Source of the DNA: Ruditapes philippinarum
Lineage: Eukaryota
Length of the DNA stretch: 64,000 nucleotides
NCBI RefSeq assembly: GCF_026571515.1
Contig: NW_026852366.1
Location: 124,001-188,000, forward strand
Direction: 5' to 3'
Numbering within the stretch: the stretch's first letter is position 1; each line of letters starts with the position of its first letter. A program made the position numbers. Of this stretch, positions 15,001 to 18,000 are shown piece by piece.

Positions 15001-18000
15001 TGAAAGTATGACCGAATCTAACGTAAATAAACCCAAATAGAACTAACTAAAATAAAAAATGACGCTTAAAATTATTTTGTGGATTTATATTTTACCAATA
15101 TGCCGAGGTAATTTTAAAGGATCTATATTAATATGTTTATTATTTTCTGCACTTCATTTTATCCTAGCATTACTCAAATATTTTTTTTTATTTACAAGTT
15201 GTAAGCCACATAAAACCAAAGTACGTCAAATTATGCCTAATGGTTTTTTCCTTTGATAAAATATAATTCATGCAGATTCGACCAGTTTCATATCTTTTAA
15301 TAGATAGATAACAAAAAATAAAAAAGAACAAATTTATACTTGATACTACATAATATTCTTGAAAGTTATATTCAAAGTGCATGTAACTGAATTGAAAATT
15401 GAACATGCATGAACTTAAAAATGATTGAATTACGGAGGCGTCCTGGGTGACCTAACGTTTTCGCTATAAGATATATTACCATCCTCCAGTAAACTAGATC
15501 CAAATAAGATAAATTTCGATAAAGATATTTTTCTTTGTCAAGAGTTGGATAAGACTGAATTTATTTGATATGGGCACTATGTTATAGACTATGAAATGGG
15601 CAATTCAACTAGCCCTGGTAGACATTTATTTTTGTTGTTGTTGTATTTTTTTGTTGTATTTTCCTGAGATGCTCCACTTTTTCATGCCTCATGAATATTC
15701 TCTACTTGCTCTTTTAATCAAAGCCGTTTGATATGATTTTAATTTACCGATTAACAGAAAGAAATGTCATTTGTTTATTAAAATGTGTGTTGTCGCATAC
15801 TGTCTGATATAGTCAGTTACTTTTGTATTATATATAATCTTGTTTATCCCGATCTCAAATTTATTAGACAGGATCTAAAACAAAAATGCATTCCATTCCA
15901 TGGATCCACACAAGATATTGAAATATTCATTGAATTACATAAGAACCTTTACAAAGTAATTATGATTAATGCAATGAGATAATTTACACGTATTTTCCTT
16001 TTGCTTTTTGTATTAATTTATCAATATATACATTGGTATATAATTTGCTGAAAGATTGCTATATGATTTATATTTTAGTGCAGTCTGCAAACGGTTATGA
16101 TGTGACGTCACCAGGAGCTATAATAGGAATCGTTCTAGTAGCTATTGTTATAATCACGGCAATCGTCATCATAGTTGTCATCTGCTTGAAAAAGACATGG
16201 CATAAACAACGAAGACAAAATACAATATCAAACAAGACAAAGAAAGTTCCAAAAAAGCCAACAACGATTTCAGGTGAATACAGTCATAACATAGAACTTT
16301 ATTAAAAGTTAAATATTCAATATATTCCCTTCTGTTAATCTTTATTGTAAACGGTATGCGGGTGCATAATAAAATGGTTTTCTCATTCATCTTATGTAAT
16401 ATGGTGTATCGTCTTTTTAAATAATTAGTTACAATTGTTGTAGAACTGTTATAATGTTATAATTTATGGTGCCATTTAAGTTGCAATCCATATTTTTATC
16501 TTAAATTAAAATGTAGATTGTGTTTGTTTAGAATTTCTTTTCACAATACATAGAAGCAATATGTAAACCTGAATTTATGTACATATATTTTAGAAACGCT
16601 TATCGAAAAATTGCCTGACATCCCAGAAGTAGACGAAAATATAAGTGCGTCTGGTGTAAGCGTAAGAGATGAATCTAAACTAACGTTTTATCAAATTGAC
16701 AATGAGGCAAGCACTACTGAAGCGGGTGACATTGATAAAGAAAATGAAAAAGTGGAACAATATGAAGCTAACAAAATAAGTGAGGATATGACTGTCTCAG
16801 TGAAAACCGATAAGATACAAACACAAACTGAAGAATCAGAAACATTTGAGAGCAAACCAGATGAACCAAAGTCATCTGGTGAGGATTTGGTAAAGACAAT
16901 CAACTGTGAAAGTGAAACAACACAGGATATAAAAAGTGAAGTATCCATCACACGTGTAATTGAAAATGAAAATATTTTGAGGAAAGATTTACCTTATTTA
17001 AACTCTACAGAACACATTTTCTCAGAATATGATCCAGCTATGACATACAAATCGGAGAGTGAATGGAAATCAAAGAGTGACGAAGGCTTACATCTACAAT
17101 CGATCAGATTTGAGAGAAAAAATATCGCTCCAAGAGCTTTTGAAATAACTCGCGATGACAGTGATTTGAATCTCAAATCTCAAAGTACGATAGAGGTTGA
17201 AATGCACGAAGCAACAAAGGTATCCAGTCGATCCGAAGGAACATTAACTGATGATATGAAAATAAAATCATTGAAAAGAAGATCATCTTTAATATCTAAA
17301 GTAACGAGCAAATCATTCCAATGGAATTTCGATTATATATCTCCATATGCAATGACAGATAAACAAAAGCGTGAGCGTTATGAGTTAAAGCTTAAAATTC
17401 GTAAGCGAAGAATGCTAGCATTGAAACAAAAGTTAGCTGATAAGGAAAGACAACAGTATGAAAATAAACTAGCATTTGAGAAATGGAAACTACGAAAACA
17501 GGGCGAGAAACATTACGAAGGAGACATTGGGTCTTTTAACAAAAGAAAATTTAATAAATATAATTACTGGTATCCGTAATCAATGACTTATTATCATTTA
17601 TCCTCTCTAGAATATATTCATTTACTTCAGTGTGGAAGAATAAATACATTTCCACAACGTTGAAAAGTCATAATCATGCAAGTATATAATACTTTATGAT
17701 AAAAGTAAACAAAAAGTACTAGTATCATCTTATTTATTTGAAATCCACAAAGCCAGCAAGTACGTTCGAACACACAAAAAATATGCAAAATAGCATGAAA
17801 TAATGACAAATATTGTAATCTCTAAAACAGTATCAAACGTGCGAAATAAAATGCTGATTTACACAAACGTAGTACATTGAAATACTCGTCTGATAGCATA
17901 CATATAATTAAAGAACATAATCTCACAGGACAACTAAAATTTCAGAAACACATATCGTTTATCAAAAATGTCTGATTTCTTCACTAAGGACAAACATAAT

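What the first reader, a model, noticed from the sequence alone, without database searches (positions are those of the whole stretch)
15059..17579. Gene C: intact ectodomain-less paralogue, explicable by clean loss of a phase-1 exon cassette
In D/E, exons 2-8 lie between two phase-1 introns. In C the signal exon joins the TM exon directly across a 971-bp intron in which I see no ectodomain remnant, and the 409-aa frame is intact despite deep divergence from D. Inference: it is a maintained adaptor, decoy or constitutive signalling unit rather than debris. The same phase symmetry would allow D or E to skip exons 2-8.
Basis: partly seen in the sequence, partly recalled or inferred. Interest (0 to 1): 0.7.

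Follow-up and report, generated by a model that had tools for sequence, protein, structure and literature searches.

The report
Intact membrane protein lacking its ectodomain
Gene C is an intact, selectively maintained single-pass membrane protein that has the signal, membrane and tail exons of its neighbour D but none of D's extracellular-domain exons, which is an ordinary result of exon-cassette loss or gain in a tandem gene family of unknown function.

Summary
C is three exons (15059-15107, 16079-16273, 16594-17579) with GT/AG introns, both in phase 1, giving 1230 nt or 409 codons. Its 971-bp intron 1 has no detectable remnant of the D/E ectodomain: the best tblastn hit is 19.2 bits, reached by 27 of 200 shuffles.

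D and E carry a cassette between two phase-1 introns.

C looks maintained. Tail dN/dS against B is 0.32-0.36, and 0 of 300 bootstraps reach 1. It shows no rate acceleration with D as outgroup, 17 against 19 unique changes. Its frame would not stay open under neutrality.

The short architecture is not special to C. A and B share it and are broken, and a solo exon-1 copy (X) carries a stop.

Whether the cassette was lost by the short forms or gained by D cannot be settled from this window. The tail has no Pfam family, is mostly predicted disordered and ends in one long helix. Function, expression and orthologues stayed unchecked. The case is modestly interesting and of a known kind.

The parts
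15059..15107 (+). Gene C exon 1: ATG plus a 16-codon signal-like hydrophobic peptide plus 1 nt (phase 1); donor GTAATT
   Evidence: Same 49-nt length and phase as exon 1 of D and E. Donor context GTAATTT is shared with A, B and X.
15108..16078 (+). Gene C intron 1, 971 bp, 27% GC, no ectodomain remnant detectable
   Evidence: best 19.2 bits; 27 of 200 shuffles reach it; no Rfam match. No similarity to the rest of the window except its last ~18 nt, which match A/B.
16079..16273 (+). Gene C exon 2, 195 nt, phase 1-1: ~12-residue extracellular stub, TM helix with GxxxG, juxtamembrane Cys, basic stop-transfer stretch
   Evidence: Only generic sub-threshold single-pass TM profiles in Pfam. Same length as D's TM exon (195 nt).
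16274..16593 (+). Gene C intron 2 (GTGAAT...TTTTAG), phase 1
16594..17579 (+). Gene C exon 3, 986 nt: cytoplasmic tail with conserved motifs (LRKDxPYLNSTE, RDDSDL, SEGTL, WNFxYxSPYA, LAFEKWK, terminal WYP), stop TAA
   Evidence: Predicted mostly disordered, with one helix at tail residues 255-303, 38 residues with pLDDT >= 90.
17639..17644 (+). AATAAA, a candidate polyadenylation signal 60 nt after the stop
   Evidence: read; not tested further
2502..4712 (+). Gene A, short-form paralogue (exons 2502-2556, 3361-3579, 3737-4712). Pseudogene: AAG>TAG nonsense and a 7-nt deletion in the tail exon
11374..13703 (+). Gene B, short-form paralogue (exons 11374-11428, 12205-12433, 12706-13703). A 10-nt insertion in the TM exon gives an in-frame stop and shifts phase; the tail frame itself is still open
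8325..8373 (+). X: solo copy of C's exon 1 with TGA where C has CGA at codon 16. Homology to C (7013-8403 = 13779-15137, 83%) ends 30 nt into the intron; an N gap follows at 8785-8968
18379..24793 (-). Gene D, long-form paralogue, 9 exons, 2181 nt, intact: signal exon 24793-24745, TM exon 19824-19630, tail 19415-18379
20619..24143 (-). D ectodomain cassette, six exons (24143-23951, 23181-23078, 22689-22534, 21859-21674, 21191-21073, 20760-20619), 900 nt. Phases at successive boundaries, from cassette start to cassette end: 1,2,1,1,1,0,1. It is flanked by phase-1 introns
   Evidence: Exon 5 weakly matches the first half of Pfam DUF7042 (E 0.0076 in D, 0.00034 in E; both below the cut-off).
25367..32861 (+). 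Gene E, head-to-head with D: signal exon 25367-25415, six cassette exons (903 nt), TM exon 32670-32861. Its downstream tail is not homologous to the A-D tail

Best explanation
C encodes a 409-residue type-I single-pass membrane protein. It has a signal-like peptide, an extracellular stub of about a dozen residues, and one TM helix carrying a GxxxG motif, a juxtamembrane cysteine and a basic stop-transfer stretch. Its cytoplasmic tail of roughly 345 residues is mostly disordered, studded with short conserved motifs, and ends in a helix of about 50 residues.

C is the only intact member in this window of a short-form subfamily (A, B, C and the remnant X). That subfamily shares the signal exon, TM exon and tail exon with the long-form neighbour D, but lacks D's six-exon, 900-nt ectodomain cassette. 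The cassette sits between two phase-1 introns.

Shown: the structure, the phases, the purifying selection and the decay of A, B and X.

Inferred:
- C is translated and works through its tail as a membrane-tethered scaffold that cannot itself read an extracellular ligand.
- The cassette difference arose by one intronic recombination event in the common ancestor of A, B, C and X. I slightly favour a deletion from a D-like gene over the reverse.
- Any pairing with D or E through the conserved TM motif or the tail helix is speculation.
For: - Gene model: GT/AG sites, phases 1/1, 1230 nt, no stops.
- Homology of each C exon to A, B and D at the same phases. The tail matches B at 53% and D at 30% identity by tblastn. 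TM exon lengths are 195 nt in both C and D.
- Selection: tail C-B dN 0.29, dS 0.80-0.93, omega 0.32-0.36, bootstrap 95% interval 0.25-0.48, 0 of 300 replicates >= 1. TM exon C-A omega is about 0.30-0.35.
- Relative rate with D as outgroup over 293 ungapped columns: 17 changes unique to C against 19 unique to B, p 0.74.
- Conservation is patchy. C-B identity in 30-residue windows runs from 0.23 to 0.80, with motif blocks shared with D.
- 5.9% of single-base changes in C's codons make stops. A neutral branch of 0.1 substitutions per site would be expected to give 7 nonsense hits, P(none) 7e-4.
- By contrast A-B, which carry disruptions, give omega 0.74-0.87 with an interval including 1 (27 nonsynonymous and 7 synonymous codon differences among 319 codons).
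- The cassette is flanked by phase-1 introns and is 900/903 nt.
- Tail structure: mean pLDDT 45.5, and 265 of 327 residues below 50. One helix spans residues 255-303, and 38 residues have pLDDT >= 90.
- GxxxG or small-xxx-small and a juxtamembrane Cys occur in all five TM exons.
Against: - There is no expression evidence of any kind. No signal-peptide predictor was available, so the signal call rests on hydropathy and on position.
- dN/dS is a pairwise average over both lineages. A recent loss of function in C (a branch under about 0.04) cannot be excluded.
- Three of the four short-form copies here are broken, so the short form is clearly dispensable in some copies.
- The tail has no Pfam family and no relative in the PDB. 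The scaffold function is therefore argued from architecture only.
- Direction of the cassette event is not resolved:
  - D-E ectodomain dS is about 0.97.
  - D-E TM exons look saturated (pS 0.78) and are only 36% identical.
  - E's tail is unrelated to the A-D tail.
  - This mosaic pattern is equally well explained by D having acquired the cassette.
- An unconserved extra exon in intron 1 cannot be excluded without RNA data.
Confidence: 0.6

Rival explanations
1. The short form is ancestral and nothing was lost. D is a chimera: the 5' part of an E-like gene (promoter, signal exon, cassette, first half of the TM exon) recombined with the 3' part of an old C-like short gene (second half of the TM exon plus tail). 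The crossover lay in or just before the TM exon.
For: - D-E ectodomain exons are 66-88% identical with dS about 0.97. The adjoining TM exon drops to 21 of 59 identical residues with pS 0.78.
- D-C TM identity (18 of 57) equals D-C tail identity (32%).
- E has no trace of the A-D tail motifs in 32862-40000. One recombination would explain both the cassette difference and the tail difference.
- The 3' end of D's TM exon matches C's (ATTTCAG|GT...IS) and not E's.
- Maximum chi-square on D's TM exon puts a switch from E-like to short-form-like sites near mid-helix: 19:8 before and 12:24 after, reached by 230 of 5000 permutations.
Against: - The breakpoint signal is not robust. Permutation counts were 209, 613, 2057 and 203 of 5000, depending on whether C or A is the reference and on the columns used. 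At the amino-acid level it was 1367 of 5000.
- The same pattern arises if E, not D, is the recombinant.
- TM and juxtamembrane sequence evolves fast anyway.
- All five genes share the 49-55-nt phase-1 signal exon and the phase 1-1 TM exon, which suggests one ancestral skeleton.
- D is inverted relative to A, B, C and E, so a simple unequal crossover needs a further inversion.
Confidence: 0.33
2. C is not ectodomain-less. It has further, lineage-specific exons in intron 1 or upstream that bear no similarity to the D/E cassette.
For: - Intron 1 contains open stretches of 66, 48 and 47 codons on the + strand.
- Homology searches cannot find unrelated exons, and no RNA data are available.
Against: - Those stretches have no Pfam family above threshold, and none is conserved in A or B. 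The A/B and C introns share only the last ~18 nt.
- A and B have the same direct signal-to-TM layout, with introns of 804 and 776 bp.
- The 1-1 phase match already gives an intact frame.
Confidence: 0.07
3. C is a silent or recently dead copy whose frame is open by luck, like its neighbours A, B and X.
For: Three of four short-form copies in the window are disrupted, and there is no expression evidence.
Against: - Omega 0.32-0.36, with 0 of 300 bootstraps >= 1.
- No rate acceleration against B.
- P(no nonsense) is 7e-4 even for a neutral branch of 0.1.
- Splice sites, the start context and an AATAAA are intact.
Confidence: 0.05

Closest known systems
Gene D of the same window (long-form paralogue)
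   Same: 49-nt phase-1 signal exon, 195-nt phase 1-1 TM exon ending ...IS|G, and one large tail exon with the same motif series and terminal WYP.
   Different: D has six extra exons (900 nt, about 300 residues, Cys-rich with NxS/T sites) between the signal and TM exons. Tail identity to C is only about 32%.
Class 1-1 symmetrical modules of metazoan exon shuffling (Patthy; PMC8001218, passages read)
   Same: A module flanked by phase-1 introns can be inserted, deleted or skipped without breaking the frame. The first phase-1 intron sits at the signal-peptide boundary, as that paper describes for secreted proteins.
   Different: Here the symmetrical unit is a six-exon block with internal phase-2 and phase-0 introns, not a single-domain exon. 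The direction (gain or loss) is unknown.
Transmembrane adaptor proteins such as LAT or PAG (recalled from general knowledge; no call)
   Same: Tiny extracellular part, one TM helix, membrane-proximal cysteine, long disordered cytoplasmic tail carrying short motifs.
   Different: As I recall, those have no signal peptide and act through tyrosine motifs. C has a signal-like exon, and its one YxN-type site (PYLNSTE) is PHLNSTE in D. There is no sequence relation.
EGFRvIII, the in-frame exon 2-7 deletion of EGFR (recalled; no call)
   Same: An in-frame loss of a block of ectodomain exons leaves signal, TM and cytoplasmic parts intact.
   Different: That is a somatic tumour variant of a kinase receptor. 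C is a germline paralogue with no catalytic domain.
CCDC181 (coiled-coil, flagellar/ciliary protein; abstract of PMC11491787 seen in the listing)
   Same: The language-model feature search with C's tail gave CCDC181 clusters first (score 0.92, 200 of 256 features). The tail ends in a K/E-rich helix containing LAFEKWK.
   Different: Recognition value was 1966, below the tool's 2300 mark, so this is weak. No Pfam CCDC34/PF13904 match at E up to 10. CCDC181 is, as far as I recall, a soluble protein. This is a lead only.
Pfam DUF7042 (PF23069)
   Same: Exon 5 of D and of E matches profile positions 2-51 of 123. This names, tentatively, what C lacks.
   Different: Scores of 16.6 and 21 bits are below the 27-bit cut-off. 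C has no such sequence. No paper mentions the name.

Membership tests
The A-D tail family of this window (unnamed) | Signal-like first exon of 49-55 nt ending in phase 1 | tested here: met
   C 49 nt, A/B 55 nt, D 49 nt
The A-D tail family of this window (unnamed) | TM exon in phase 1-1 with GxxxG or small-xxx-small motif, juxtamembrane Cys and basic stretch | tested here: met
The A-D tail family of this window (unnamed) | Single tail exon with LRKDxP(Y/H)LNSTE, RDDSxL, SEGxL, WNFxYxSPYA, LAFEKWK and terminal WYP | tested here: met
   73 invariant columns among C, B and D over 293 ungapped columns
Long-form (D/E-type) receptors with the DUF7042-like cassette | Six ectodomain exons between the signal and TM exons | tested here: not met
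   No remnant in C intron 1: best 19.2 bits, reached by 27 of 200 shuffles
Pfam DUF7042 (for D/E ectodomain) | Score at or above the 27-bit gathering cut-off | tested here: inconclusive
   16.6 bits (D) and 21 bits (E) on exon 5 alone, covering half the profile. The joined ectodomain was not searched, by rule.
CCDC181 / CCDC34 (PF13904) | Profile match to PF13904 or sequence similarity to CCDC181 | tested here: not met
   No PF13904 hit for the C, B or D tails at E<=1, nor for the whole C tail and the three C-terminal pieces at E<=10. Only an Atlas feature score of 0.92 with low recognition.
Transmembrane adaptor proteins (LAT/PAG type) | No signal peptide; very short ectodomain; palmitoylated CxxC; conserved tyrosine docking motifs (features recalled) | tested here: inconclusive
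   Short ectodomain met. Signal-like exon present, so that feature is not met. Single Cys only. The Tyr of PYLNSTE is not conserved in D. No profile exists to test.
Processed or decaying pseudogene | Frame disruptions or dN/dS near 1 | tested here: not met
   No stops or frameshifts; omega 0.32-0.36. A, B and X do meet this feature.

The most novel reading that the evidence does not exclude
The cluster may record exon shuffling between neighbours. On this reading the six-exon ectodomain cassette is a mobile block that was joined, through phase-1 introns or a crossover inside the TM exon, to two unrelated cytoplasmic tails: E's and the A-D type. The short form represented by C would then be the original state of the tail family, and D would be a young chimera.
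Probability: 0.3. Interest if true: 0.55.

Novelty: new member of a known kind. Interest (0 to 1): 0.35.

Why it matters
The finding gives a clean, checkable example of paralogues in one tandem cluster that differ by a whole ectodomain cassette bounded by phase-1 introns. The short form is kept under purifying selection in one copy while three sister copies decay. If C is expressed, it shows that the conserved cytoplasmic tail of this uncharacterised family has a function that needs no extracellular domain, and that narrows where to look for the family's function. The cluster could also date and orient one exon-shuffling event once related genomes are compared. As a phenomenon it is textbook, so its value is local to this family and organism.

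Tried and rejected
- Pfam on the tails of C, B and D, on E's putative tail, and on C-terminal pieces: no family above threshold.
- PDB sequence search with C's tail, E exon 5 and D exon 2: nothing below E 0.65.
- Atlas search with E exon 5: no usable hit.
- Rfam on 14000-18400: nothing.
- Paper search for DUF7042: 0 papers.
- Search for a seventh D/E ectodomain exon by tblastx of the five syntenic introns: only chance-level hits.
- Search for the A-D tail motifs downstream of E's TM exon (32862-40000): none.
- ORF 9212-9742 against E's tail ORF: E 0.06, not related.
- I first took MELKEITSQ... (D 23129 onwards) for D/E's start. I rejected this once the conserved acceptor, the synonymous-biased upstream differences, a further upstream exon and the true 49-nt signal exons were found.
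- Recombination breakpoint in D's TM exon: marginal and not robust.
- Complex prediction on the C and D tail-helix regions returned no verdict. It counts neither for nor against binding.
- Fold search of the tail model was not run, because a single helix in a low-confidence model gives meaningless matches.
- The search for related loci and search_dna_similar were not used. Their collections (bacteria/archaea, phages, plasmids, E. coli) cannot hold relatives of this animal-like gene.
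Full report
**Scope and limits**

- The window is AT-rich (27-38% GC in 2-kb bins) and holds multi-exon genes with short AT-rich introns. I do not take it for human.
- The run of N at 8785-8968 was left alone.
- All searches, folds and counts were done exon by exon. The joined (spliced) proteins of C, D and E were never assembled or searched. That limits domain calls on the ectodomain.
No orthologue from another species could be sought, and the organism is not identified.
- No expression data and no signal-peptide predictor were available.

**1. The observation**

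Read directly and tabulated, gene C has three exons:

| Part | Coordinates | Notes |
|---|---|---|
| Exon 1 | 15059-15107 | ATG, MTLKIILWIYILPICR, +1 nt, donor GTAATT |
| Intron 1 | 15108-16078 | 971 bp, ends TTTTAG |
| Exon 2 | 16079-16273 | 195 nt |
| Intron 2 | 16274-16593 | |
| Exon 3 | 16594-17579 | 986 nt, stop TAA |

- Both introns are phase 1. The total is 1230 nt, or 409 codons plus the stop. There are no internal stops, and both split codons start with G.
- An AATAAA lies at 17639-17644.
- Exon 2 encodes a stub of about 12 residues, a hydrophobic span with GxxxG, a cysteine at the cytoplasmic edge and a basic stretch.
- Exon 3 encodes 328 residues.

**2. The family in the window**

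tblastn with C's three exons, a self-comparison of the window and alignments show four more loci.

*The short forms A, B and X*
- A (2502-2556, 3361-3579, 3737-4712) and B (11374-11428, 12205-12433, 12706-13703) have the same three-exon layout as C. Their first introns are 804 and 776 bp, and they have no ectodomain.
- A and B lie in a recent segmental duplication: 131-4747 matches 9229-13738. Identity is 82-85% in the flanks and 94% in the tail exon.
- A is a pseudogene. Its tail has an AAG>TAG nonsense codon and a 7-nt deletion.
- B has a 10-nt insertion in the TM exon. This creates an in-frame stop and throws the still-open tail out of phase.
- A copy of C's upstream region and exon 1 (7013-8403 against 13779-15137, 83%) carries TGA where C has CGA at codon 16. 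It loses homology 30 nt into the intron, shortly before the N gap. I call it X.
- C is therefore the only intact short form of four.

*The long forms D and E*
- They were modelled from D-E conservation, a scan for signal-like first exons and boundary checks.
- D, on the minus strand, has nine exons and is intact (2181 nt):
  - signal exon 24793-24745 (MLFFLYMWILIIHLFR +1 nt)
  - six ectodomain exons: 24143-23951, 23181-23078, 22689-22534, 21859-21674, 21191-21073, 20760-20619
  - TM exon 19824-19630 (195 nt)
  - tail exon 19415-18379
- E, on the plus strand, starts 574 bp away, head-to-head with D. It has the matching exons 25367-25415, 25825-26020, 27396-27499, 28057-28212, 29178-29363, 30365-30483, 31085-31226 and TM exon 32670-32861.
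- The cassette is 900 nt in D and 903 nt in E. It begins after a phase-1 intron and ends before a phase-1 intron. Its internal introns include one of phase 2 and one of phase 0.
- Exon 5 of D and of E weakly matches the first half of Pfam DUF7042 (E 0.0076 and 0.00034, both below the cut-off). The other exons match nothing.
- E's sequence downstream of its TM exon has none of the A-D tail motifs.

**3. Is there an ectodomain remnant in C's intron 1?**

- Twelve D/E ectodomain exon translations were run against 15108-16078. The best hit is 19.2 bits, 28 residues, and contains a stop.
- Control regions (the A and B introns, C intron 2, C upstream) give comparable hits.
- Of 200 dinucleotide shuffles of the intron, 27 reach 19.2 bits.
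- The intron's longest open stretches (66, 48 and 47 codons) have no Pfam family above threshold. The only listing is DUF2721, E 0.044, 14.1 bits against a cut-off of 28.3. There is no Rfam match.
- So none is detectable.
- This test has little power. C and D are saturated at synonymous sites (pS 0.75), so a neutrally decaying pseudo-exon of that age would be invisible. 'No remnant' therefore does not show that a deletion was clean.

**4. Is C maintained?**

- On the tail exon, C against B gives dN 0.29, dS 0.80-0.93 and omega 0.32-0.36 by three methods. The bootstrap 95% interval is 0.25-0.48, and 0 of 300 replicates reach 1.
- The TM exon, C against A, gives omega of about 0.30-0.35.
- With D as outgroup, over 293 ungapped tail columns, 17 residues are unique to C and 19 unique to B (Tajima test p 0.74). 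C has not sped up.
- C-B identity along the tail varies from 0.23 to 0.80 per 30-residue window. The conserved blocks are the ones shared with D.
- 5.9% of single-base changes in C's codons create stops. A neutral branch of only 0.1 substitutions per site would be expected to bring about 7 nonsense hits, P(none) 7e-4 (assuming uniform mutation).
- The disrupted pair A-B gives omega 0.74-0.87 with an interval including 1.
- I conclude that C's coding sequence has been under purifying selection for most or all of its history since the split from A/B.
- The pairwise omega averages both lineages, so a very recent silencing cannot be excluded.

**5. What the protein looks like**

- The tails have no Pfam family and no PDB relative.
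- A structure prediction of C's tail exon, with B and D as the alignment, has mean pLDDT 45.5, and 265 of 327 residues are below 50.
- One helix spans tail residues 255-303 (DKQKRE...LAFEKWK...), and 38 residues in all have pLDDT >= 90.
- The language-model search put CCDC181 clusters first (0.92). The query's recognition value is below the tool's mark, and PF13904 does not match. I keep this only as a lead.
- The TM exon matches only generic single-pass profiles below their cut-offs.
- All five TM exons keep a small-xxx-small or GxxxG motif and a juxtamembrane cysteine.
- The best reading is a membrane-tethered, largely disordered cytoplasmic scaffold with a terminal helix. Its activity cannot depend on an ectodomain of its own.
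- Whether it pairs with D or E, as a decoy or co-receptor, is open.

**6. Loss or gain?**

- D-E ectodomain exons are 66-88% identical, with summed dS about 0.97 and omega 0.18.
- The D-E TM exons share only 21 of 59 residues with pS 0.78. That is no closer than D-C, at 18 of 57.
- E's tail is unrelated to the A-D tail.
- The cluster is therefore a mosaic. At least one exon-level rearrangement near the TM exon separates D from E, and one cassette event separates D from the short forms.
- Two histories fit:
  - (L) A D-like ancestor. The ancestor of A/B/C/X deleted the cassette, and later E's 3' part was replaced.
  - (G) Separate E-like and short C-like lineages, with D formed by one recombination joining E-like 5' exons to a C-like 3' part.
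- A maximum chi-square scan of D's TM exon hints at a switch from E-like to short-form-like sites at mid-helix (230 of 5000 permutations).
- The hint is not robust. Permutation counts were 209, 613, 2057 and 203 of 5000 under other choices, and 1367 of 5000 at the amino-acid level. The same pattern would also arise if E were the recombinant.
- Phase-1 symmetry is generic for metazoan extracellular modules and for introns at signal-peptide boundaries (PMC8001218, passages read). It allows both directions.
- I give L about 0.45-0.5 and G about 0.3-0.35. Outgroup genomes are needed to decide.

**7. Comparison and verdict**

- The phenomenon is a standard outcome of class 1-1 exon shuffling, and in architecture it resembles transmembrane adaptors (recalled, not tested).
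- The family itself is uncharacterised.
- The 'clean loss in C' reading is only partly supported. The short form is shared with two broken paralogues and one remnant, and the direction of the event is unresolved.
- Interest is modest.

Noticed in passing
5118-6936: A tandem array with a 145-bp unit (10.6 copies, 85% matches; also readable as a 290-bp unit) lies between gene A and the X remnant.
   Followed up: partly
9212-9742 and 131-946: A 176-codon open frame rich in S/T/P lies upstream of B. Its counterpart upstream of A (85% identical DNA) is not open. It has no Pfam family and no real similarity to E's tail. Whether it is an exon of another gene is unknown.
   Followed up: partly
3681-4747 vs 12650-13738: The A and B tail exons are 94% identical, while the rest of the same duplicated segment is 82-85% identical. 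Yet dN is about equal to dS between them (0.036 and 0.049). This looks more like recent gene conversion of the tail exon than like selection.
   Followed up: partly
24745-25415: D and E are arranged head-to-head with their signal exons only 574 bp apart, which suggests a shared bidirectional promoter.
   Followed up: no
50584-53345: Two exons of a superfamily-1 helicase gene on the + strand match Pfam AAA_11 (E 4e-13 and 3e-32).
   Followed up: partly
8969-9237 vs 51040-51308: A 270-bp interspersed repeat, 93% identical between the two places, abuts the N gap. Other dispersed repeats link 1441-1607, 28302-28469 and 48342-48473.
   Followed up: no
12340-12375: B's frame-breaking 10-nt insertion sits in an AGAAG/AGTAGAAG repeat tract of the juxtamembrane R/S-rich region. 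Slippage, or an assembly or sequencing error, is possible.
   Followed up: no
33661-34431: A 257-codon open frame downstream of E's TM exon is a candidate E tail. It has no Pfam family and no similarity to the A-D tail. E's 3' exons were not modelled.
   Followed up: partly
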